This document shows positions 1 to 8,607 of a stretch of DNA of 8,607 bases, piece by piece. Below the pieces are notes generated by a model that was not told the origin of the DNA, searched no databases, and was given only the letters and a program-made list of their open reading frames with translations. Origin of the DNA: Patescibacteria group bacterium (lineage in GTDB: Bacteria; Patescibacteriota; Patescibacteriia; Magasanikbacterales; GWA2-37-8); contig SCQK01000024.1 in assembly GCA_004321885.1 (NCBI GenBank), forward strand, positions 1 through 8,607, given 5' to 3'. Both the position numbers and the translations under genes were made by a program. Position 1 is the stretch's first letter, and each line of letters begins with the position of its first letter.

Positions 1-346
1 CCCCCAGATTGGTAGAGAGTTCATAGTCGAGACTATACGGCGAAAAGAAGTGCGATGGCGTGATGCAATGGTACCTGACGATTTTTACGCCGCCGGCATG
101 CCGTAATATGTCCCATCCTGACTGCCAATGGGTCGCATGGTGATAGATAGTGAGGCATTCGTCTGTTGCCGCCCAATCGGGGTAGTCCGACAACGGGGAG
201 GACAGCCAACTGAGGTTATCGGACCATTGATGCGCAAATACTCTGGCAGGGATGCCGACGTTTCTTAGCGCTCCACACATGCCCAGGATATCGTTTCCTA
301 CCGCATCCCCATCCTGGAACATTGGAGCGAGAAGGGCTACCCGCAT
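1..346 (-). CDS. Partial CDS (N-terminal ~115 aa; continues past the window edge), possible glycosyltransferase-like protein
   Basis: Absent from the ORF track because it runs off the window. Minus-strand ATG at 346..344 is preceded by GGGAG with a 5-nt spacer (gcGGGAGaagtcATG). The frame stays open for all 115 codons down to position 1 (MRVALLAPMFQDGDAVGNDILGMCGALRNVGIPARVFAHQWSDN...). The N-terminus loosely resembles the start of GT-B (GT4-like) glycosyltransferases; this functional call is weak. It is on the same strand as the coiled-coil gene and 114 bp downstream of it, which fits the same operon. Confidence 0.45.
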   Translation of the reverse strand, partial: MRVALLAPMFQDGDAVGNDILGMCGALRNVGIPARVFAHQWSDNLSWLSSPLSDYPDWAATDECLTIYHHATHWQSGWDILRHAGGVKIVRYHCITPSHFFSPYSLDYELSTNLG

Positions 347-460
347 GACTTCTCCCGCCTGCCAACCTAATCTGTGTGGAATATGTCGAAAATTTACTGA
401 AGGGTAGTATGGCGAACGCAGAGAAGCCAACGGGAACCCTGCACGACCGACCTGCTGTCG

Positions 461-1159
461 CTACTCAACCTCTGTTTTTCGTTTCGTCTGCTCGGCGCCG
501 GCCAATACCTGATCCTCAAGCTGGCTGTAGATCTGCGCAATGGCGTGGTCATACTCGACCCTCAGGCTCTCGATCCGGTCCCAGGCCTCGGTGAGCCGAT
601 CCCGGAGGTAAAGGAGATTTGCCAGTTGATTGTCGAGATCGGTATTTCGCTTCGCAAGCTCATCGAGCCGGAGCTTCAGGAGGCCCGCCGCGTAATTGTG
701 CCGAGCCTCATGCTCTTCGAGCGCTTGGCGGTGCCGATTCATGTGCTCCTCGAGCGCTTGGCGGTGCCGACTCGCATGCTCCTCGAGCGCGGGTAACAGG
801 CGATTCAACAGCTCGACAAGGCTTGTGTTGAACGCCTCCTGTCGAACGAAGATCGCCCGGTGATACGGAGCCAATATCCGCCTCAACCATCGCTTCACTC
901 GTTCCTTCAGAGCGCTTCCGCCGGCGGCAATGACCCCCTGGGGTTTCGGATCGCGGAGCCGGTTCAGCATGGTCAGATAGTGGCCCAGCGACTCGATAAG
1001 CGCCTGGCCAGGAGGGGACTCAGGGGGTTCGATAGGGCGTACTTCGTGGCCCTCCGCCTCCGATGGGCGCTGCGCCCGTTGCCTCTCGAGATGCTCCCTT
1101 ACTGTGGCCATGATCTTTTCGACGTCGATCTCGCGATCGTTACCATCAATGATTTCCAT
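461..1159 (-). CDS. Hypothetical coiled-coil protein (232 aa) encoded directly downstream of wzt; candidate chain-length/scaffold protein
   Basis: Complete ORF with ATG at 1159..1157 and GGGGA 6 nt upstream (caacaGGGGAcactcaATG), 27 nt after the wzt stop. The C-terminal two thirds are rich in E/R/L/Q/H with heptad/hendecad-like periodicity (ALEEHASRHRQALEEHMNRHRQALEEHEARH..., LDELAKRNTDLDNQLANLLYLRDRLTEAWDRIESLRVEY) and show no TM segment. It contains an in-frame 33-bp tandem repeat. I recognise no enzymatic motif. Confidence 0.6.
   Translation of the reverse strand: MEIIDGNDREIDVEKIMATVREHLERQRAQRPSEAEGHEVRPIEPPESPPGQALIESLGHYLTMLNRLRDPKPQGVIAAGGSALKERVKRWLRRILAPYHRAIFVRQEAFNTSLVELLNRLLPALEEHASRHRQALEEHMNRHRQALEEHEARHNYAAGLLKLRLDELAKRNTDLDNQLANLLYLRDRLTEAWDRIESLRVEYDHAIAQIYSQLEDQVLAGAEQTKRKTEVE
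711..790. repeat. In-frame 33-bp tandem repeat (~2.4 copies) inside the coiled-coil gene
   Basis: Units are 711-743 ctcttcgagcgcttggcggtgccgattcatgtg, 744-776 ctcctcgagcgcttggcggtgccgactcgcatg, then a partial third copy ctcctcgagcgc from 777. Identity between full units is about 28/33. They encode the 11-residue repeats LEEHASRHRQA / LEEHMNRHRQA / LEEHEARH. Confidence 0.65.
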
Positions 1160-1186
1160 TGAGTGTCCCCTGTTGACGACGACCGA

Positions 1187-2872
1187 TCATTCCGCAAGGA
1201 TTTCCCGGATGGCAAGTCCCAACTCCCGCGTATCGCGGCTTCCTGGGATCGTGTCGCAGGGCCTCCAGAAGGAATCGAGGGAAATGCCGATCGGGATGAT
1301 CTGATTCACATACGCGTCCGGAATCCGCACAGACAGGACCTGCGGCCCAGAATTCTTCAGGCTAAACCGGCCGATGACTTTCTCCAGGATCTGCACCGCG
1401 CCATCGAGTGGTCTATCGCCGGCGTCGAGTCTCGTCATGACGACCTCCACTCGAAGGTCATTCGTCTTCGGCCGGAGCGCAAAGGCACAGTTCTGTCGGG
1501 ACCATCGGAACGCCCCCGCCTCGTTCCGCTCCCCCTCGTACCACCCCTGGAGCAGGAACTTCTCGGACCGTTCATCCATCGACAGGCGGGCGGGAGCATC
1601 CTCAAACATCTCTCCGAACGAACTCTCTTCCAGCTCGCCGGGCCGCTTGCTCCACCGCACGACCGGGTAGAGTTTCGCGACGCCGACGAACTGAAAATCG
1701 CCGGAGGGTATGACCTTGAACGAGAGCACCCGATCGACCCAATCAAAACACTCGTGAACGTGAACATCGAGCGTGTGAATCGCCACCGTGATAGTATAGT
1801 CGCCCGGACCCACGTCCAGCACCATGGTGAACTCGATCTCTAGAACCTCTCCAGATACGAAGGCACCAAGGCGGTGGCCGAAGTGAAACGTGTTCGTCCC
1901 AAAGACATCCAGACCAAGGCGGTCCCGAATCAACATGCCTACCGTCGGGTCCTCGATCGCCTCGAAGAACATCGCGCGGATTGCAACGGTGACCTTCTGG
2001 CCGGCGACGAGTATGCCGCGACTCTCGCCGCGTTCATCCAGAAGCTCGACCCGCGAGATGATGGCGCCGAAGTTGCCGGATCGGCGGCCGGCGCCCCCCC
2101 CCTCCTGCTCAACGCCACGAGTGATCATGTGGGGCTTGCTTCCGCTGCTCTGTTTGGCGATTAAGGCGTTATAGAGGTCCAGGACGTCATCAGGTTTGCC
2201 CACCTCGATCACTCTTCCTTCGTGGAAAAGTGCCACCGCGTCGCAGAGCGACTTGACGGCCACGAGGTCATGCGATGCGATCAGTGCCGTGACCCCTCGC
2301 TCTTTAAATGCCTTCATCCGCTTGGCGCACTTTTGCTGGAAGTACGCGTCGCCCACGGATAGGATCTCGTCGATCAAGAGCACCTGCGGGTCAATGCTTG
2401 CCGCCAGCGCAAATCCCAGGCGAAGCTGCATCCCGGCGGAATAGGTTCGCATGGGCAAATCGATGAATTCCCCCAACTCGGCAAAGGCGACGATTTCATC
2501 TAACCGTTCCACAATCTCTTCGCGAGAAAGCCCGAGCAGTCTTCCATTCATCAGAATGTTTTGCCGTCCTGTAAACTCGCCGTGAAATCCGGTCCCTAGC
2601 TCCAACAGGCTGACGACCCGATCTCCCATTTTAAAGGAACCTTCGGTCGGCTTCGTGACCCCCGTCAAGATTCTCAACAGTGTGCTTTTCCCGGCGCCGT
2701 TTTGGCCGATAACCCCCAGCGCGACGCCGGGAGGGATCGATAGGTTGATATTTCTGAGCGCCCAGAATTCGCGATGACAGATCTTTCGCCCGCCGGAAAG
2801 CCATTCCTTTATACGGTCGGCCGGCCTGAGGTAGACCTTATATCGCTTGGACAGGTTGGTGATGTCAATCAC
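1187..2872 (-). CDS. wzt: O-antigen/glycan ABC transporter ATP-binding protein Wzt (KpsT/TagH family), unusually long at 561 aa with an extended C-terminal region
   Basis: GTG start at 2872..2870 with GGAGG 7 nt upstream. The N-terminus matches the Wzt/KpsT/TagH pattern (NLSKRYKVY...DRIKE...EFWALRNINLSIPPGVALGVIGQNGAGKSTLLRIL). Walker A is GQNGAGKST, the family-specific signature is YSAGMQLRLGFALA, and Walker B is LLIDEILSVGDAYFQQKC. About 300 residues follow the nucleotide-binding domain, consistent with a Wzt-type C-terminal glycan-binding beta-sandwich plus a further ~140 aa. It sits 27 nt downstream of wzm. Confidence 0.9.
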   Translation of the reverse strand: MIDITNLSKRYKVYLRPADRIKEWLSGGRKICHREFWALRNINLSIPPGVALGVIGQNGAGKSTLLRILTGVTKPTEGSFKMGDRVVSLLELGTGFHGEFTGRQNILMNGRLLGLSREEIVERLDEIVAFAELGEFIDLPMRTYSAGMQLRLGFALAASIDPQVLLIDEILSVGDAYFQQKCAKRMKAFKERGVTALIASHDLVAVKSLCDAVALFHEGRVIEVGKPDDVLDLYNALIAKQSSGSKPHMITRGVEQEGGGAGRRSGNFGAIISRVELLDERGESRGILVAGQKVTVAIRAMFFEAIEDPTVGMLIRDRLGLDVFGTNTFHFGHRLGAFVSGEVLEIEFTMVLDVGPGDYTITVAIHTLDVHVHECFDWVDRVLSFKVIPSGDFQFVGVAKLYPVVRWSKRPGELEESSFGEMFEDAPARLSMDERSEKFLLQGWYEGERNEAGAFRWSRQNCAFALRPKTNDLRVEVVMTRLDAGDRPLDGAVQILEKVIGRFSLKNSGPQVLSVRIPDAYVNQIIPIGISLDSFWRPCDTIPGSRDTRELGLAIREILAE

Positions 2873-2899
2873 CGGTGCGCCTCCCTTGTCGGGCCTGCC

Positions 2900-3811
2900 T
2901 CATACCTCATCAACGATTTCATCTTTCAGGCGGAAGAAGATTGCGGACCCTATGGTCAGGCTTATCAGGGACAGCATGGCTGCTATCCCAAGGGTTGACC
3001 ACGATGGGAAGGCGCCGTCGAGGATCACCGAGTGATATCCCCGGATGAAATGATACATGGGATTGAGTTGAAAGAAGCCCCTCGCGCCCTCGGGCAATAT
3101 GCTCTCCAGATACACGACAGGAGTCAGCCAGAACCACACCTGTAGCCCGATCCCGACCAACTGCGAGATGTCCCTGAGAAAAACATTCAATGCGGACAGA
3201 ATCAGTCCCAGTCCGAAGGCGAAGGTGAACTGAAGGATGAGCAGGACCGGGAGCGCAAGATAGGCAACTCTGAGCCTATGTCCGGTCAGGACGAGAAAGA
3301 CAAGGAAAATAGAGAACCCGATCAGGAAGTTGACGAAGCTCGAAAAGGCAATTGAGCCGCCCAGCAGCTTCTTGGGAAAGCTCATTTTTTTGAGGAGCCA
3401 CGCCTGATCCAGAAAGACCGTGGTCGAACGACTGATCACCTCGACGAAAGCGTTCCAGGGCAGAAGGCCGGCGCACAAATATATGCTGTAGCCATACACG
3501 TCGCTCATCCCCGGGAGCTTCGCCCCCATGACACGCGAAAAAACCATGGTATAGATGATAATCATCGCCAAAGGATGAATGACGTTCCAGACGATTCCCA
3601 TGAGGGAGCCGGCATATCGACTTTTGAGGTCCCTGACCAAAAAATTCAGAAGCAGGTCTCGGTGACCGACCATATCGTCGATCGTAGTCTTTAGATACGA
3701 GGGAGAAAACCGATTCGGGCGAGACGGCGTCCCAGATGCGGGCAGAGACGTGTGACGGTGATGGCCTGTTTCGAATCGCGGTCCATGAAAAGAAAAAACC
3801 GGTTTGCTCAC
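2900..3811 (-). CDS. wzm: ABC-2 type polysaccharide exporter permease Wzm (KpsM/TagG family)
   Basis: The motif LLLNFLVRDLKSRYAGSLMGIVWNVIHPL is the characteristic N-proximal motif of ABC-2 permeases (compare RELIWNLVRRDLKVRYKGS). It is followed by about six hydrophobic TM segments. The GTG start at 3811..3809 has AAGGA 6 nt upstream. An alternative internal ATG at 3673 has no SD, so I prefer 3811. The gene is directly upstream of wzt, the classic wzm-wzt arrangement. Confidence 0.88.
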   Translation of the reverse strand: MSKPVFSFHGPRFETGHHRHTSLPASGTPSRPNRFSPSYLKTTIDDMVGHRDLLLNFLVRDLKSRYAGSLMGIVWNVIHPLAMIIIYTMVFSRVMGAKLPGMSDVYGYSIYLCAGLLPWNAFVEVISRSTTVFLDQAWLLKKMSFPKKLLGGSIAFSSFVNFLIGFSIFLVFLVLTGHRLRVAYLALPVLLILQFTFAFGLGLILSALNVFLRDISQLVGIGLQVWFWLTPVVYLESILPEGARGFFQLNPMYHFIRGYHSVILDGAFPSWSTLGIAAMLSLISLTIGSAIFFRLKDEIVDEV

Positions 3812-4039
3812 TTCACATCCTTGGCCTTCGATGACTGCGCTCTATAAGAAACTCTCCGGCGTGACCTCTTCGATCTTGACAGTCTGATCCCCGGTTGCAC
3901 CCTTTGCCGGGAGAATCATATCCTGAACGCCTTGGAGGAGGCGAACGAAACGCTGAGCTCGCAGATCCAGAAGGTTATCCCGTTATGACCCTCGAATCGG
4001 CGGCGTGAGGACCCCAGGCACGGAAGATTTTCTGAGCAA

Positions 4040-4090
4040 CTCTTTTATTGACGTTTGAATTTATCACATTAAATCGACTGCGGGCAAGGT
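4040..4090 (-). promoter_or_regulatory. AT-rich core of the 324-bp wzm-upstream intergenic region; putative promoter of the wzm-wzt operon
   Basis: Non-coding gap 3812-4135 between the GT2 stop and the wzm start. The only AT-rich patch is plus 4041-4080 (tcttttattgacgtttgaatttatcacattaaatcg). On the minus strand it reads TTGCCC-17 nt-ATAAAT (-35 at 4087..4082, -10 at 4064..4059), a weak sigma70-like match. The exact elements are not resolvable by eye. Confidence 0.25.
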
Positions 4091-4135
4091 TCTTTTGCGC
4101 CTATAGGTAACACATTCGCCCTCCGTAACAGGTTG

Positions 4136-5116
4136 TCAGGAGCGTTCTTTTGGTGGAGGGGCTTCGTCGGACGAGGGCGGCAATCCGTAGACGGTCCTCA
4201 CTAAATACAGCGGCCTGGCTTTCACCTCTTCCAACATGCGACCGATATATTCTCCGATTACTCCCAAGCAAATGAGTTGAACGCCCGCCATGAAAAGCAC
4301 GATGGTGACCAGGGAGGCCCAGCCGCTCGGGTGTATGGTGATCCCCAGGAATACTTTTAAAACAAAGATGAGTATCATGGCTAAGAAACCGATCAGAGCT
4401 GAAACGAGCCCCGCTATGCTCACCAATTGCAGGGGAACGACGGAAAAACCCACGAAACTATCGAAGGCGAGTCGGATAAGCGCCATAGTGCCGACTCTTG
4501 ATTCGGCGTCATAACGCGGGTTTCTGCCAAGCACTATGCCTGTCTGGCGGAAACCCACCCAACTGCGCAGGCCGGGAATGTAACGATTTCGTTCGGGCAG
4601 TTGATTGATAATTCGGACTATGCGGCGGTCCATGAGGGCGAAACTCCCGGCCTCTTCAACGTCGATCCCGGAAAATTTCTTATTGATCTTATGGAACAGC
4701 CGGAACGCGAGGCCTTTCATCCGGGAAACATTACGTTTGCCCCGCACCGCATAGACTACCTCCCAACCCTCTTGCCATTTTTCAAGAAAGCGAAGGATAT
4801 GTTCAGGATCGTCTTCTAAATCCGCGTCCATGACGATGGCGCAGTCTCCCTGGGCGTAGGAAAGACCGGCAGAAATGGCTCTGTGGTGGCCGAAATTTCT
4901 GGACAAGTCCACCACGGCAATCCGGGAGTCGCGGCCTTGCAAGGATAGCAGGACAGGCAGGGAGGAATCCGTGCTACCGTCGTTGACAAAAATAAAGCGA
5001 AAGTCGTAGGTCCTTTCTTGATTCGCTGCGGCGCACAACTTTTGGTAGAGCAGAGGAAGGCCCTGCGCCTCGTTGAAGAGGGGCACAATGACATCTATTT
5101 TTTTGTTGGTCGTCAA
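4136..5116 (-). CDS. Glycosyltransferase family 2, polyprenyl-phosphate sugar synthase type (DPM1/ArnC/GtrB-like) with C-terminal TM helices
   Basis: The N-terminal GT-A domain is KKIDVIVPLFNEAQGLP...FIFVNDGSTDSS...VVDLSRNFGHHRAISAGLSYAQGDCAIVMDADLEDDPE. The DxD motif is DAD, and SRNFG...AGL is typical of the Dol-P-Man synthase/ArnC/GtrB family. The C-terminus has two hydrophobic helices (LQLVSIAGLVSALIGFLAMILIFVL...LVTIVLFMAGVQLICLGVIGEYI), as in GtrB/ArnC. I call the start at the TTG 5116..5114 (MTTNKKIDVIVP...). It has GGAGG just upstream (4-nt spacer, a little short) and forms a TTGA overlap with the upstream stop. The ORF-track start at 5158 (also TTG) has no SD and would overlap the upstream gene by 46 nt. 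Confidence 0.85.
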   Translation of the reverse strand: MTTNKKIDVIVPLFNEAQGLPLLYQKLCAAANQERTYDFRFIFVNDGSTDSSLPVLLSLQGRDSRIAVVDLSRNFGHHRAISAGLSYAQGDCAIVMDADLEDDPEHILRFLEKWQEGWEVVYAVRGKRNVSRMKGLAFRLFHKINKKFSGIDVEEAGSFALMDRRIVRIINQLPERNRYIPGLRSWVGFRQTGIVLGRNPRYDAESRVGTMALIRLAFDSFVGFSVVPLQLVSIAGLVSALIGFLAMILIFVLKVFLGITIHPSGWASLVTIVLFMAGVQLICLGVIGEYIGRMLEEVKARPLYLVRTVYGLPPSSDEAPPPKERS

Positions 5117-6126
5117 ACAGCCTCCGGAATGTGAGCCGTTGAACTTTCCGTGAACCAATCGGCCAAGCGTTTTAAACCGTCCCGGTAGAAAATGTGTGGC
5201 TCGTAACGTAATTTGCGCCGGGCCTTTTCAATGTCATAGACATGATCCATTGTAAAATAACGAATAGTCTTTGGGTGAATCAGTCTTAGCGCGGGTGGCT
5301 TCAGCGCCTGGGGCACGAGGCGTAAGGCTCGAGCGGTCAAAGCCCCGAAGAGGTATGGAAGCCGTCGTGGAGGAGGGCTTTGCAGTAATTGAGCCAGATA
5401 GTCAAAAATGTTTTCTATTGTGGGCGCGCACGGCCCGGCCAGGTGATACATTTGACATCGCGCGTGGGAGCCGGCCTCCAAAGCCAGCAAGACGCCTTCG
5501 ACCACGTCCGAGACATGCGTGACATGCAGCCGCGCCTTGCCGTTTCCCAGAATCCAGAAATTTCCCGATTGGATTTTTCGCAGGGTTTCAGGCCAACCGT
5601 ACAGCATGCCTTCGCCATACAGTTGCGCAGGACGAAGGATGATCCAGTTGATATTGTTCAGCGAGCGGATCAGGCGTTCCGCTTCTTGCTTAGAGCGGCT
5701 GTATTTGGAAGGGGAGGTTTCGTAAGGCGTTTCCTCATCCGCTGGGCCTGATCGCGTCGGTCCTAGAACGCTTACCGTGCTGATATGGATAAAAAGAGCC
5801 TGTGGATTTTTTGCGCATGCCGCCTCTACAACATGTTTTGTTCCTTCCACATTCACAGAGCGGAATTTGCTGTAGGGCAGATGTTCATAGTTGCTCATCA
5901 GCGCCGCGCTATGAATGACGGTGTCTGGGGGGTCAATGGAGTGTTTCCAGATGTGCGGGCGCTCCAAATCACCTTCAACGACTCGGATACCTTGGCGTCT
6001 CCAGTGGTCGATCCCCTTTTGATTGGCAGGCCGGATTAACGCTTGGACATCATGGTCGAGTTGAAGGAGAGCGTTCGCTACACGGCCGCCCAAAAAACCT
6101 GTTATGCCGGTTAAAAAAATTTTCAA
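5113..6126 (-). CDS. NAD(P)-dependent epimerase/dehydratase-family SDR oxidoreductase (~337 aa)
   Basis: The Rossmann start MKIFLTGITGFLGGRVANALL (GxxGxxG) falls exactly where the proposed TTG start lies (6126..6124), overlapping the rSAM TGA stop as TTGA. The catalytic YxxxK is YSRSK, with the upstream S-containing strand HISTVSVLG. The ORF-track ATG at 6264 would add 46 non-Rossmann residues and overlap the rSAM gene by 141 nt, so I disfavour it. This start has no good SD (AGAGGA is about 15 nt upstream), consistent with coupling/reinitiation. Confidence 0.85.
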   Translation of the reverse strand: MKIFLTGITGFLGGRVANALLQLDHDVQALIRPANQKGIDHWRRQGIRVVEGDLERPHIWKHSIDPPDTVIHSAALMSNYEHLPYSKFRSVNVEGTKHVVEAACAKNPQALFIHISTVSVLGPTRSGPADEETPYETSPSKYSRSKQEAERLIRSLNNINWIILRPAQLYGEGMLYGWPETLRKIQSGNFWILGNGKARLHVTHVSDVVEGVLLALEAGSHARCQMYHLAGPCAPTIENIFDYLAQLLQSPPPRRLPYLFGALTARALRLVPQALKPPALRLIHPKTIRYFTMDHVYDIEKARRKLRYEPHIFYRDGLKRLADWFTESSTAHIPEAV

Positions 6127-7496
6127 GAGCTGATGATCAGTTCCTCTGGCGGGCGAGGAATTTCTATTCGTATGTTGCGTTGCGTTGGAAAATAATCCTT
6201 CCAAATCCGGCGAAGGAGGGAAAAAAACCAGCGCGGTCTGTAGTAGTAGCTGACATAGGCCCATTCCTTCAGCGCTTCCAGTTGCGCGGGGCTAAGCTGC
6301 GGGTGCATCACGACGGGGGTAAAGCAATCCATCTTTTCATAGTCGTCCGTCAAGAGACCGTCTCCGACCATCTTATAATAAGCCGTTCCCGGGAATGGGG
6401 TGGCAAGATAAAACATCGCGGCATGGGTATTGAGTTGTTTGGCGTATTCCACCGTAGATCGGATTTTTTCCGGACTGTCTTCAGGCAGGCCCAGGACATA
6501 AAACGCGCATACCCTTAGTCCGATACCGTCGCAGAATTTGACGATGCGTTCTTGATGCTCGACGGGGACGGGAGCCCGGCCTATTTTTCTCAAGATAGCC
6601 TCATCCGCGGACTCGATGCCCACATTGATGACGCGCAGGCCGGATTCATAAAAAATATCAATCAGCTCTTCGTTCAAGAGGTCTAGCCGGGTTTCGCAGG
6701 CCCATTTAATTTTAATGCCTCGTTGAATAATACCCTCAGCGATTTGGCGGGCTCTTTTGCGATTGACCGAGAACAAGGGATCGCGAAACAACAGCGCCTT
6801 CGCGCCGAATGTATTCGCCGCGACTTCGATTTCATCCAATACCTTTTCCACGTTCCGCTCCCGCCATTGGTAGTTGACCGGGTAAGGGCAGTAATCGCAG
6901 GAGTAGACGCAGCCCCGAGAGGATAACGCCACCAGGAAGGGGGTTTCACGCAGAGATGGAAAATACGAGTATTCTTTAACGGGAAAATATTCCCACGCGG
7001 GAAAAGGCAAGGTATCCAAATCGTCGATAGGCCGACTGATCACGACGCCCTGGAGATTGTTCCCGCGCGCCAGTTTCAAGCCCGCTTCTTCCACTTCGCC
7101 GGCGATTAGGAAATCGGCGTAGGGAAGAAAAAGATTGGGTCGGAAGGTGGCGAAGGGCCCCAGGAAGCCGATTTTGATGTTCGGCCTTTTCTCTTTTATG
7201 CGCTGAGCCCAGCGGATTTCGTTTTTATAGTCAATCATACTGGCATGCATTAAGACGAGATCAGCATCCGGGATTTCATTGGTCAGCAGTTGAACTTCGT
7301 GGCCGTGATCGCGGAAAATGGCCGCCAGATAGGCGAAATAAAGGATCGGCACTTTTTCGCCTTTTTTTTTGACGAGTTCAATCATTCGTGCCGGCAGCGA
7401 GCGGCCGATATGGAAAGCCCAGCCGTAACCGCCCATAAAGTCTTTATTCACGCACTCCGGACGTTGAGCGGTTATTTCTAACAATGCGACCCTCAT
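6123..7496 (-). CDS. B12-binding-domain radical SAM enzyme (class B radical SAM), 457 aa
   Basis: ATG at 7496..7494. The N-terminal roughly 150 aa form a Rossmann-like cobalamin-binding domain (VKKKGEKVPILYFAYLAAIFRDHGHEVQLL...NIKIGFLGPFATF). It is followed by the canonical radical SAM cluster motif CxxxCxxC (ALSSRGCVYSCDYCPYP) and a TIM-barrel region (GAKALLFRDPLF..., INVGIESADEAILRKIGR). The fold class is confident. The reaction is unknown; the family includes methyltransferases, ring-contraction enzymes such as HpnJ/OxsB, and others. Confidence 0.9.
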   Translation of the reverse strand: MRVALLEITAQRPECVNKDFMGGYGWAFHIGRSLPARMIELVKKKGEKVPILYFAYLAAIFRDHGHEVQLLTNEIPDADLVLMHASMIDYKNEIRWAQRIKEKRPNIKIGFLGPFATFRPNLFLPYADFLIAGEVEEAGLKLARGNNLQGVVISRPIDDLDTLPFPAWEYFPVKEYSYFPSLRETPFLVALSSRGCVYSCDYCPYPVNYQWRERNVEKVLDEIEVAANTFGAKALLFRDPLFSVNRKRARQIAEGIIQRGIKIKWACETRLDLLNEELIDIFYESGLRVINVGIESADEAILRKIGRAPVPVEHQERIVKFCDGIGLRVCAFYVLGLPEDSPEKIRSTVEYAKQLNTHAAMFYLATPFPGTAYYKMVGDGLLTDDYEKMDCFTPVVMHPQLSPAQLEALKEWAYVSYYYRPRWFFSLLRRIWKDYFPTQRNIRIEIPRPPEELIISS

Positions 7497-7565
7497 TGTT
7501 TCATCTCATCAATAAGATGGTTGCGATCACAAACAGTAACAGTTGGAAGAAGAGTCTATTTTTCA

Positions 7566-7713
7566 GCACTTAGGAGCCTGTCCTGTAAACCCCTTGTTGT
7601 GGTTCGACAGGCTCACCACGAACGGAAAAACGTCATTCTTTTGATTGCCTATACCGTTCGCCCTGAGCGTGTCGAAAGGTGAACGGCGGTTTACAGGACA
7701 GGCTCTTAGCATT
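7566..7713. repeat. About 148-bp imperfect palindromic element (MITE/ERIC-like, or a highly structured leader RNA) with 18-bp perfect terminal inverted repeats and nested inner inverted repeats
   Basis: The left arm 7574-7591 gagcctgtcctgtaaacc is the exact reverse complement of the right arm 7688-7705 ggtttacaggacaggctc. The arms extend imperfectly to 7566 and 7713, for about 23 bp with 2-3 mismatches. Inner inverted repeats are cgaacgg (7620-7626)/ccgttcg (7654-7660), gtggt (7600-7604)/accac (7614-7618) and ttcgaca (7604-7610)/tgtcgaa (7670-7676). The element lies between the aldolase stop and the rSAM start. Confidence 0.55.
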
Positions 7714-7719
7714 GTTTTA

Positions 7720-7750
7720 AAAAAATATAGCTCCTGTCAGGCAATGTCAA
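7720..7750 (-). promoter_or_regulatory. Candidate sigma70-type promoter for the rSAM-SDR-GT2 operon
   Basis: The minus strand reads ggaGTTGACAttgcctgacaggagcTATATTttttt. It has a perfect -35 TTGACA (plus 7750..7745) and -10 candidates TATATT (15-nt spacer), ATATTT (16) or TATTTT (17). The predicted TSS is near 7712, giving a roughly 215-nt leader that contains the palindromic element before the ATG at 7496. Spacer length and the -10 hexamer are ambiguous. Confidence 0.3.
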
Positions 7751-7838
7751 CTCCTTTCACTGCCGCGGTCTCTGTAGAATCAGGTTGTACATGAGAGACG
7801 CGAACGTGAGGTTCGCCCGGAAGCTGTAGTCGACGACG

Positions 7839-8552
7839 TCACCCACGTGCACCCGCTTGATCGACGAGGGGGGGCAGGTCTGTCGCTACCTCCCCGTCTG
7901 GCGTCCCGGCCCGGTACGTCTCGAAGAACGCCCTATTTCGACTCACGTCCGCATCCTCGAGCGGATGCGCGCCGCCCAGTATCTCGGCTCCGATATAGAT
8001 CTTGGCCAGCCGCTCGACCTCGAGCGCCCGACGCATCGCCTCGGCCAGGTGGCGGCCAACTACAACCACGCCGTGATTGGCGAGCAGGACAGCGTTGCCG
8101 CACGACCCAAGTTCGCGCAGCACAACCTCGGCCAGCTCAGGGCTTGCGGATGGTGCATAGGTCGCTGTCGGGATTGGGCCGATATCCGCCGCCTCGTCGA
8201 GGAGGACGGGGATCGTCTTGCGGGCCACCGCTACGGCTGACGCCCACGTCGAATGGTGATGGATGACCGCATTGATGTCCGGGCGAGCCTGGTAGATGGC
8301 GACGTGCAGCCGCCACTCGCTCGTCGGCTTCCACCGACCTGTCGCGCGACCGGACTCGATCTCTACCTGCACGAGGTCTCGCTCGGTGAGCGTCCGATAG
8401 TCCTGACCCGTCGGGGTCATGAGGACGCTGGTTCCATCCCCGCATCGCGCACTGATATTCCCCGACGTCCCGTCTGTCAGCTCAGACTTAACCAGCCGCC
8501 AGCCCACCTCGATGATCTGTTGTGAGAGTTTCACGCGGGCCTCTCCCTCCAC
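7839..8552 (-). CDS. Class II aldolase/adducin-family protein (FucA/AraD/MtnB-like metal-dependent aldolase/epimerase/dehydratase)
   Basis: GTG start at 8552..8550 with GAGG 4 nt upstream. The conserved phosphate-binding motif GTSGNISAR is near the N-terminus, the metal-binding histidines are in AVIHHHSTWASAVAV, and the glycine-rich helix GNAVLLANHGVVVVGRHLAEA matches the class II aldolase fold. Length is 237 aa. The sequence is GC-rich, about 67% locally. Confidence 0.85.
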   Translation of the reverse strand: MEGEARVKLSQQIIEVGWRLVKSELTDGTSGNISARCGDGTSVLMTPTGQDYRTLTERDLVQVEIESGRATGRWKPTSEWRLHVAIYQARPDINAVIHHHSTWASAVAVARKTIPVLLDEAADIGPIPTATYAPSASPELAEVVLRELGSCGNAVLLANHGVVVVGRHLAEAMRRALEVERLAKIYIGAEILGGAHPLEDADVSRNRAFFETYRAGTPDGEVATDLPPLVDQAGARG

Positions 8553-8607
8553 CGAACCTCATTGCCTCGACAGGCAATCCCCAAGTGCCGCTCTACACTG
8601 AATTCTG

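What the first reader, a model, noticed from the sequence alone, without database searches (positions are those of the whole stretch)
1187..1615. Wzt carries about 140 extra C-terminal residues beyond the usual substrate-binding domain
Typical Wzt proteins are about 430-470 aa: a nucleotide-binding domain plus one C-terminal beta-sandwich that binds the capped glycan terminus. This one is 561 aa. After the expected beta-sandwich region (about aa 260-420, FGAIISRVELLDERGES...FQFVGVAKLYP) comes a further segment (about aa 420-561) containing GWYEGERNEAGAFRWSRQNCAFALRP...VEVVM...LSVRI...VNQIIPIGISLDSFWRP. That GW-x-E-x(n)-FRW-x(n)-A-x-L pattern recurs in accessory beta-rich domains of polysaccharide-associated proteins. 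A tandem double recognition module would imply dual-epitope recognition or recognition of an unusual terminator, possibly the product of the neighbouring rSAM/SDR/GT2 module.
Basis: partly seen in the sequence, partly recalled or inferred. Interest (0 to 1): 0.5.

Follow-up and report, generated by a model that had tools for sequence, protein, structure and literature searches.

The report
Extra sugar-binding-like domain on Wzt
The O-antigen export ATPase in this window carries, after its normal sugar-cap-binding domain, a second well-folded beta-sandwich domain of an unannotated family that recurs on hundreds of polysaccharide-assembly proteins. It is real and probably an auxiliary glycan-binding module, but it is a variant of a known system rather than a new kind of system.

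Summary

The domain, called "X" here, has a signature motif: GW[YH]xxE...RW[TS]...WxP...DxRxLG. It defines a wide family:
- 107 of the 118 best Wzt homologues carry it, across several uncultured phyla.
- It also sits on SAM methyltransferases, radical-SAM/SPASM enzymes and Wzy_C membrane proteins.
- It occurs on exported proteins with Tat or lipoprotein signals.

The Wzt_C cap pocket is intact and matches the Aquifex methyl-sugar pocket. Related loci have a coiled-coil methyltransferase terminator next door.

Best reading (about 0.5): X is an auxiliary glycan-binding module that adds avidity or a second specificity check. This makes it a new variant of a known kind, of moderate interest.

The parts
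1187..2872 (-). wzt ORF, 561 aa: NBD, then Wzt_C, then domain X
   Evidence: ORF list. There is an RBS (GGGAGG) upstream of the GTG start. The identical protein P0105 is in NCBI as 'ABC transporter ATP-binding protein'.
2138..2872 (-). ABC nucleotide-binding domain (aa 1-245)
   Evidence: Pfam ABC_tran E 1.1e-18. Aligns to A. aeolicus Wzt and TagH NBDs.
1646..2086 (-). Canonical Wzt_C carbohydrate-binding domain (aa 263-409) with an intact cap pocket
1562..1645 (-). Linker / N-terminal prelude of X (aa 410-437) with two short helices and a conserved L/F419, F423, P427 motif (F-x-D-A-P-S-x-l-x-M)
   Evidence: Alignment A4. Helices at fragment residues 167-173 and 185-190 in the AF2 model. Conservation 0.77-0.89 among 105 Wzt-X proteins. 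Many non-Wzt members also match from profile positions 6-13.
1190..1561 (-). Domain X core (aa 438-561): a ~10-strand beta jelly roll, CBM-like, from an unannotated family
2900..3811 (-). wzm, the ABC-2 permease partner
   Evidence: Pfam ABC2_membrane E 1e-18. Conserved immediately upstream of wzt in related loci.
461..1159 (-). 232-aa coiled-coil protein: the N-terminal part of a WbdD-like coiled-coil methyltransferase terminator, with the MTase part missing here
   Evidence: Homologues lie directly downstream of Wzt-X in L001, L002, L083, L084 and L020. The L084 (511 aa) and L020 (392 aa) versions end in a class I SAM methyltransferase. Homology between the window and L001 stops at nt 488.

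Best explanation
The gene encodes a complete, canonical cap-dependent O-polysaccharide export ATPase (Wzt: NBD plus Wzt_C cap-binding domain). An extra, independently folding beta-jelly-roll domain ('X', aa ~414-561) is fused to its C-terminus. X belongs to a large, so far unannotated domain family whose fold is that of CBM6/35/36-type carbohydrate-binding modules.

Proposed mechanism:
- Wzt_C still recognises the chain-terminating cap. Here the cap is probably an O-methylated sugar added by the coiled-coil methyltransferase terminator encoded next door in relatives.
- X acts as an auxiliary cytoplasmic glycan-binding module. It would hold another part of the undecaprenyl-linked polymer (internal repeat units or a second epitope).
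- This would raise the local substrate concentration at the transporter and/or add a second specificity check before export.

Shown: the domain exists, folds separately, has a CBM-type fold, is conserved, is fused to many Wzt proteins, and is shared with other glycan-assembly proteins on both sides of the membrane. Inferred: that its ligand is carbohydrate, and what that binding does for export.
For: Discrete folded domain:
- AF2 gives pLDDT 96.2 for X alone.
- The aa 250-561 model shows two beta-sandwiches joined by short helices (pLDDT 87.5, pTM 0.74).

CBM-type fold:
- Foldseek gives the same kinds of hit.
- There are weak sequence echoes to CBM60 (8 of 82 copies), CBM_6 and PL4 CBM-like domains, and to CBM35 2w3j.

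Modular family tied to glycan assembly:
- Among 96 representative proteins, the partner domains are Wzt_C (19), radical SAM (12), SAM methyltransferases (~11), Wzy_C (10), sulfatase, GT2 and PMT_2. X is often in 2-3 tandem copies, as CBMs typically are.
- X-bearing proteins are encoded next to wzm/wzt even where Wzt itself lacks X.

Found on both sides of the membrane:
- X occurs on cytoplasmic enzymes, and also behind a Tat signal (P0047), behind a lipobox (P0087), and after the last TM helix of polytopic Wzy_C proteins.
- The polysaccharide or its lipid carrier is the obvious ligand common to both compartments.

Under selection:
- In close homologues X is as conserved as the NBD and Wzt_C (89/85/88% in P0106). 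At larger distances it diverges faster (about 40% versus 70/60%), as expected for a substrate-specific module.
- P0083 has X directly after the NBD with no Wzt_C, so X occupies the CBD position there.

Context:
- The Wzt_C cap pocket is intact.
- Relatives show the wzm - wzt-X - coiled-coil methyltransferase - multi-GT4 organisation of capped-glycan systems.
Against: - The family-wide invariant residues (G443, W444, E448, R456, W457, P538, D547, R549, L551, G552) look like a structural core.
- Canonical Wzt proteins work without X, and a clade of close relatives has apparently lost it, so it is dispensable in some backgrounds.
- The inter-domain arrangement comes from a monomer model with a 14-sequence alignment. 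It ignores the strand-swapped CBD dimer known for Wzt.
Confidence: 0.5

Rival explanations
1. X is a docking or assembly module, not a sugar binder. [quoted passage not shown]
For: - The same domain sits on methyltransferases and radical-SAM enzymes of the same kind of loci, which could reflect homotypic or common-partner contacts.
- The linker carries a conserved motif, and the two-domain model has pTM 0.74, suggesting X packs against Wzt_C rather than floating freely.
- The only conserved residues are core-like.
- CBD repositioning controls ATPase activity in Aquifex Wzt (PMC9445017).
Against: - X also occurs on exported proteins and as 2-3 tandem copies. That pattern fits a CBM better than a specific cytoplasmic protein partner.
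- The terminator N-terminal family shows no clear correlation with X-bearing Wzt: weak matches also follow X-less Wzt in L076, L057 and L021.
- The nearest folds are mostly carbohydrate binders.
Confidence: 0.25
2. X is a second, diverged copy of the Wzt_C cap-binding domain, i.e. a tandem double recognition module for two caps.
For: Both are beta-sandwiches at the C-terminus of the same protein. Wzt_C itself is a jelly roll.
Against: - hhalign of the X profile (82 sequences) against the Wzt_C profile gives probability 1.5% locally and 0.05% globally.
- Pfam Wzt_C matches only aa 263-400.
- X occurs mostly in proteins without any ABC or Wzt_C domain.
Confidence: 0.05
3. X is an evolutionary passenger: a folded but functionally neutral or vestigial appendage.
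For: X was lost in a nested clade of close relatives. Canonical Wzt proteins function without it. X diverges fast at larger distances.
Against: - X is retained in 107 of 118 top homologues across several phyla, essentially without indels.
- In close homologues it is as conserved as the catalytic domain.
- The signature residues are more than 95% conserved within Wzt-X.
Confidence: 0.1
4. The extension is an artefact: two genes fused by a frameshift or assembly error, or a disordered / low-complexity tail.
For: One short metagenome contig (L002) has the X part preceded by unrelated AT-rich DNA and an in-frame stop. Gene callers reported 148-aa 'proteins' for L001 and L002.
Against: - L001 is simply cut at the contig edge, with the frame open.
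- More than 100 independent assemblies encode continuous ORFs of 554-618 aa with the same architecture.
- The X model has pLDDT 96.
Confidence: 0.02

Closest known systems
Aquifex aeolicus WzmWzt O-antigen ABC transporter (PDB 7K2T, 8DKU; CBD 6O14, 8DKY)
   Same: - The residues lining the 3-O-methyl-sugar cap pocket (L300, N313, T346, A348, H350, W362, V380) are identical in the window protein.
- A wzm gene is adjacent.
   Different: The Aquifex protein ends about 10 residues after the last CBD strand. The window protein continues for about 150 residues into a second domain that no solved Wzt structure contains.
E. coli O9a and Raoultella terrigena / K. pneumoniae O12 Wzt CBDs (2R5O, 5HNO)
   Different: Those proteins have a single CBD only. 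The caps differ (methyl-phosphate, Kdo).
CAZy CBM35 / CBM6 / CBM36 / CBM60 beta-jelly-roll carbohydrate-binding modules (e.g. 2VZP, 2W46, 1UX7)
   Different: - Identity is 3-13%.
- The window's X matches none of their sequence models.
- The classic modules are secreted and belong to degradative enzymes, whereas X sits largely on cytoplasmic biosynthetic or export proteins.
- Ca2+ and ligand residues were not assessed.
BcsB carbohydrate-binding domains of bacterial cellulose synthase (6YG8, 5EIY)
   Different: These domains are periplasmic and belong to a synthase-dependent pathway. There is no sequence relationship.
Predicted CBM in the K. pneumoniae O7 terminator ORF6 (Kelly et al. 2024, PMC11231755)
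   Same: It is a precedent for a non-Wzt_C CBM-like domain on a cytoplasmic enzyme of an ABC-transporter-dependent O-PS pathway. That paper states CBMs had not been identified in other terminators. X-bearing SAM methyltransferases would be further cases.
   Different: The domain is described as Ig-like and its function was not pursued.

Membership tests
Wzt (CBD-containing NBD subunit of O-polysaccharide ABC exporters) | ABC-type nucleotide-binding domain of the Wzt/TagH type | tested here: met
   Pfam ABC_tran E 1.1e-18; NCBIfam TagH/Wzt-type top hits; E 3e-97 to A. aeolicus Wzt.
Wzt (CBD-containing NBD subunit of O-polysaccharide ABC exporters) | C-terminal Wzt_C jelly-roll carbohydrate-binding domain | tested here: met
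   [not shown]
Wzt (CBD-containing NBD subunit of O-polysaccharide ABC exporters) | Adjacent Wzm ABC-2 permease gene | tested here: met
   Window 2900..3811 (-) matches PF01061 at E 1e-18, and its stop lies 27 nt upstream of the wzt start.
Wzt (CBD-containing NBD subunit of O-polysaccharide ABC exporters) | Cap-binding pocket residues, and cap-dependent export with a chain terminator | tested here: inconclusive
   The pocket residues are identical to the Aquifex methyl-cap pocket by alignment. A coiled-coil methyltransferase terminator is adjacent in relatives, but only its N-terminal part is present in the window. Export dependence cannot be tested in silico.
Wzt (CBD-containing NBD subunit of O-polysaccharide ABC exporters) | CBD dimer with exchanged C-terminal strands | not testable with these tools
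   Only monomer prediction was available. The last CBD strand (aa ~404-411) folds back on its own domain in the model.
Second copy of Wzt_C (PF14524) | Detectable sequence or profile homology of aa 410-561 to Wzt_C | tested here: not met
   No Pfam hit at E<=10. hhalign probability 1.5%.
CAZy/Pfam CBM6-CBM35-CBM36-CBM60 group | Beta-jelly-roll fold | tested here: met
   [not shown]
CAZy/Pfam CBM6-CBM35-CBM36-CBM60 group | Match to the family sequence models | tested here: not met
   The window's X has no Pfam hit. Only 8 of 82 family copies touch CBM60, weakly (best E 0.0027). The profile against PDB gives only 2w3j at E 0.98.
CAZy/Pfam CBM6-CBM35-CBM36-CBM60 group | Demonstrated carbohydrate binding / Ca2+ and aromatic ligand site | not testable with these tools
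   This needs coordinates and experiments.
Domain X family (defined here) | Signature G-W-[YH]-x-x-E ... R-W-[TS] ... W-x-P ... D-x-R-x-L-G within a ~120-aa all-beta module | tested here: met
   The window has G443, W444, Y445, E448, R456, W457, S458, W536, P538, D547, R549, L551 and G552. HMM score 125 bits, E 7e-37.

The most novel reading that the evidence does not exclude
X founds a new carbohydrate-binding-module family that works mainly inside the cell. It would be a shared 'glycan handle' used by the export ATPase, by chain-modifying or terminating methyltransferases and radical-SAM enzymes, and by Wzy_C-type membrane proteins to hold the same lipid-linked polymer. On Wzt it would create a two-key checkpoint, with the cap read by Wzt_C and the backbone or a second epitope read by X. 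In proteins such as P0083 it could even replace Wzt_C.
Probability: 0.35. Interest if true: 0.6.

Novelty: new variant of a known kind. Interest (0 to 1): 0.45.

Why it matters
Cap recognition by the single Wzt CBD is the current paradigm for quality control in ABC-transporter-dependent O-antigen export. That paradigm rests on three or four model proteins from cultured bacteria.

Here, more than 100 clusters of Wzt proteins from uncultured phyla carry a second, unannotated CBM-like domain. The phyla include Sumerlaeota, Methylomirabilota, Nitrospinota, Verrucomicrobiota and Thermodesulfobacteriota. The same domain is spread over methyltransferases, radical-SAM enzymes and Wzy_C proteins.

If X binds glycan, it would be a new intracellular CBM family and a second substrate-selection element on the transporter. 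It would be useful for predicting which enzymes act on the polymer and for glycoengineering of exporter specificity. At the least, the family deserves a database entry so that about 150 residues of these proteins stop being blank.

Tried and rejected
- **Word-index searches with X.** The homologue search with the extension alone, and again with the 82-sequence profile, returned only two fragments, P0001 and P0002. The second search was run at too strict an E-value and was wasted. The exhaustive representative search found the family.
- **Close relatives in GTDB genomes.** The single-protein scan found none. The alignment-based scan worked.
- **AFDB50 fold search.** The library was unavailable, so no UniProt-annotated structural neighbours were obtained.
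- **Sequence models.** The PDB profile search gave only a chance-level CBM35 hit. NCBIfam gave nothing meaningful.
- **X as a Wzt_C duplicate.** Rejected by hhalign.
- **X-specific partnership with the downstream coiled-coil/terminator family.** An HMM of the terminator N-terminus also weakly matches genes next to X-less Wzt, so no specific link was found.
- **Stand-alone X gene.** The idea, suggested by the 148-aa gene calls, was rejected. L001 is cut at the contig edge, and L002 has a breakpoint at the last CBD strand.
- **Link to the neighbouring rSAM/SDR/GT2 genes.** Only the Nitrospinales locus L020 shares rSAM and SDR homologues. Closer relatives (L083, L084, L085) have other gene sets.
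- **Literature.** No description of a second domain on Wzt was found in the held library. The most relevant census (Mann, Kimber and Whitfield 2019, Glycobiology 29:822) is not held, so prior mention there cannot be excluded.
- **Mapping conserved residues on the model.** Not possible, because coordinates are not exposed.

Full report
**Observation**

The window contains a 561-aa ORF on the minus strand (1187..2872). It starts at a GTG that follows a GGGAGG ribosome-binding site, 27 nt after the stop codon of an ABC-2 permease gene (wzm, 2900..3811). Pfam places an ABC nucleotide-binding domain (NBD) at aa 39-170 and a Wzt_C carbohydrate-binding domain (CBD) at aa 263-400 (E 1.1e-35). It places nothing on aa 402-561, even at E<=10, and NCBIfam is equally silent.

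The best solved relative is the full-length Aquifex aeolicus Wzt (8dku, 404 aa). It aligns to query aa 5-409 and then ends. So the protein is a complete canonical Wzt followed by about 150 extra residues (aa 410-561, nt 1190-1645).

**What the extension is**

An exhaustive profile search of 1.84 billion representative proteins with the extension found 103 clusters at E<=1e-3. After domain extraction, 82 copies aligned with a mean identity of about 27% and a sharp signature:
- W457, D547, R549 and L551 are invariant.
- G443, E448, R456, P538 and G552 are at least 90% conserved.
- This gives G-W-[YH]-x-x-E ... R-W-[TS] ... W-x-P ... D-x-R-x-L-G.

AlphaFold2 on this alignment gives a very confident model of aa 436-561 (pLDDT 96.2, pTM 0.88) with about ten beta-strands. 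A second model of aa 250-561, built from 14 Wzt-type sequences, has pLDDT 87.5 and pTM 0.74. It shows two separate beta-sandwiches joined by a short segment with two small helices. That segment carries a conserved F-x-D-A-P-S-x-l-x-M motif.

**Fold and family of the extension (domain X)**

- Many CBM6/22/29/36 modules.
- A minority of non-carbohydrate jelly rolls also appear (Reelin repeats, Cry toxins, pro-TGF-beta).

Identities are 3-13%. Foldseek agrees but only weakly (best E 5e-4, TM 0.4-0.55). There is therefore no close solved relative, only superfamily-level similarity to CBM-type jelly rolls.

At sequence level, a profile search of the PDB gives only a chance-level CBM35 hit (E 0.98). 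Per-member Pfam scans give weak echoes of CBM60 (8 of 82 copies), CBM_6, PL4 CBM-like and DUF7024, and none for the window's own copy.

Profile-profile comparison of X with Wzt_C is negative (probability 1.5%). X is therefore not a duplicated Wzt recognition module.

**Distribution**

The window protein itself is in NCBI as an 'ABC transporter ATP-binding protein' (P0105). Of its 118 best homologues, 107 have the same NBD-Wzt_C-X architecture (554-618 aa) with essentially no indels in X. Eleven lack X (409-429 aa). Source annotations and precomputed Pfam list only ABC_tran and Wzt_C.

A scan of GTDB species genomes found Wzt_C+X matches in MAGs assigned to Sumerlaeota/BRC1, Syntrophaceae, other 'delta' lineages, Nitrospinales and Verrucomicrobiota. 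The best identity was 41%, so the window's own lineage is not represented there.

In an NJ tree of aa 1-405, ten of the X-less proteins form a single clade. That clade is sister to the window's X-bearing clade and nested among X-bearing sequences, which is most simply a secondary loss. The tree has no bootstrap support, and the sample is biased towards the query.

X is as conserved as the NBD and Wzt_C in close homologues (89/85/88% in P0106). It diverges faster at larger distances (about 40% against 70/60%).

**Other proteins that carry X**

Among 96 representative family members, the partner domains are:
- Wzt_C: 19
- ABC_tran: 14
- Radical_SAM: 12, of which 7 also have SPASM
- class I SAM methyltransferases: about 11
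- Wzy_C: 10
- sulfatase, GT2 and PMT_2: single cases

Further points:
- X is often present in two or three tandem copies.
- P0083 is an NBD followed directly by X, without Wzt_C.
- In loci where Wzt lacks X, large neighbouring proteins often carry two X copies. In some Verrucomicrobiota loci a small X-only ORF follows Wzt-X.
- X also occurs outside the cytoplasm: behind a Tat signal (P0047, SRRGFL), behind a lipoprotein signal (P0087, LACG), behind N-terminal anchors, and after the last TM helix of polytopic Wzy_C proteins.

**Context of the canonical part**

By the alignment, the residues that form the 3-O-methyl-sugar cap pocket of the Aquifex CBD are identical in the window protein. The Aquifex residues are L300, N313, T346, A348, H350, W362 and V380 (PMC9445017). 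The window residues are L314, N327, T362, A364, H366, W378 and V396.

The gene just downstream (461..1159, 232 aa, coiled coil) is conserved after Wzt-X in L001, L002 and L083. It is homologous to the N-terminal part of longer proteins in L084 (511 aa) and L020 (392 aa). Those longer proteins end in a class I SAM methyltransferase. L084 has the classic wzm - wzt - terminator - multi-GT4 order.

This is the hallmark organisation of capped-glycan systems, in which a coiled-coil terminator is paired with a CBD-bearing transporter. In the window, homology to L001 stops at nt 488, so the methyltransferase part is absent. This may be a rearrangement or a contig-end artefact.

**Mechanism**

Shown:
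- X is a discrete, conserved, CBM-fold domain fused to an otherwise complete cap-reading Wzt.
- It is shared with enzymes and membrane proteins of glycan assembly on both sides of the membrane.

Inferred, with confidence of about 0.5:
- X is an auxiliary glycan-binding module.
- Wzt_C reads the cap, probably a methyl cap.
- X holds another part of the lipid-linked polymer, adding avidity or a second specificity check.

Points in favour:
- The tandem-copy pattern is typical of CBMs.
- X occurs in both compartments, where the glycan or its carrier is the common ligand.
- X diverges faster than the rest of the protein.

Rival readings:
- X is a docking or regulatory module with a protein or lipid ligand (0.25). 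This is compatible with the core-like nature of the conserved residues and with the apparent packing against Wzt_C. No specific link to the terminator family was found.
- X is a neutral passenger (0.1). Its retention and conservation argue against this.
- X is a Wzt_C duplicate (0.05). rejects this.
- X is an assembly or fusion artefact (0.02). reject this.

**Comparison with known systems and novelty**

The protein is a bona fide Wzt: the NBD, the Wzt_C domain, the adjacent Wzm gene and the intact cap pocket all test positive. X works like, and folds like, a CBM6/35/36-type module, but it fails their sequence-model membership tests. It is best treated as its own unannotated family.

None of the solved Wzt structures contains such a domain. 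The accessible literature does not mention one. The 2019 census by Mann, Kimber and Whitfield could not be read, so prior mention there cannot be excluded. Kelly et al. 2024 noted a predicted CBM in one terminator and stated that none had been seen in other terminators. X-bearing methyltransferases may be further examples.

Verdict: this is a new variant of a known kind, namely Wzt with an added domain from an uncharacterised CBM-like family. It is common in uncultured phyla, with moderate interest (0.45). It is not a new type of system, and the specific 'dual cap recognition / product of the neighbouring rSAM-SDR-GT2 genes' idea is untested and not favoured.

Noticed in passing
window 461-1159 (-) and window 1-488: The 232-aa coiled-coil protein downstream of wzt is the N-terminal plus coiled-coil part of a WbdD-like terminator. 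In relatives (L084, 511 aa; L020, 392 aa) this protein ends in a class I SAM methyltransferase. DNA homology between the window and L001 stops at window nt 488, and the last 460 nt of the window have no sizeable ORF. The methyltransferase part is therefore missing here, through either a truncation/rearrangement or a contig-end chimera.
   Followed up: partly
L002 1-400: In this short metagenome contig, homology to the window's wzt begins only at the last CBD strand ('VGVAKLYP', about nt 400). Upstream is AT-rich unrelated DNA with an in-frame stop and small ORFs on the other strand. This is either a chimeric assembly or a real breakpoint exactly at the Wzt_C/X boundary.
   Followed up: partly
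whole window (P0105 record): NCBI labels the identical protein and contig 'Patescibacteria group bacterium'. The nearest named relatives are Ca. Methylomirabilis (57%), Sumerlaeota and Binatota. The contig has 51-65% GC and an LPS-type wzm/wzt locus. The bin assignment of this 8.6-kb contig looks doubtful.
   Followed up: no
window 1-8607: GC content is mosaic: about 0.60 over wzt and the coiled-coil gene (500-2500), 0.51-0.54 over wzm-GT2-SDR-rSAM (2500-7500), and 0.65 over the class II aldolase gene (7750-8500).
   Followed up: no
window 4136-7496 (-): The module comprises a GT2 with C-terminal hydrophobic helices (GtrB/ArnC-like by appearance), an SDR/epimerase and a B12-binding radical-SAM enzyme. 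The listed ORFs overlap (5113-5158 and 6123-6264), so the SDR and GT2 starts are probably downstream of the longest-ORF starts. Only the Nitrospinales locus L020 shares rSAM and SDR homologues. Closer relatives (L083-L085) have different gene sets, including heptose-pathway genes in L083.
   Followed up: partly
P0083 (424 aa) versus P0023 (571 aa): These are two related Wzt-like proteins with nearly identical X domains. P0023 has NBD-Wzt_C-X, whereas P0083 has NBD-X with no Wzt_C. In P0083, X therefore occupies the place of the cap-binding domain.
   Followed up: partly
L030 10245-10814, L037 10914-11528, L066 10785-11501, L046 8760-9320: In Verrucomicrobiota loci, small ORFs (187-239 aa) consisting essentially of one X domain lie immediately downstream of wzt; in L030, L037 and L066 the Wzt itself also carries X. 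This suggests X can also be supplied as a separate polypeptide.
   Followed up: no
P0006, P0011, P0017, P0025 (~293 aa): This recurrent class of ~290-aa proteins has X at the C-terminus and an unannotated ~150-aa N-terminal half. By eye, the N-terminal sequence pattern resembles a beta-sandwich and may be a stand-alone CBD-like domain. Pfam finds nothing in P0006 and P0011; P0017 and P0025 were not looked at individually.
   Followed up: no
window 3812-4135 and 7497-7838: Two intergenic gaps of about 330 nt (between wzm and the GT2 gene, and between the rSAM and aldolase genes) have no ORF of 80 aa or more. They were not examined for promoters, RNAs or small genes.
   Followed up: no
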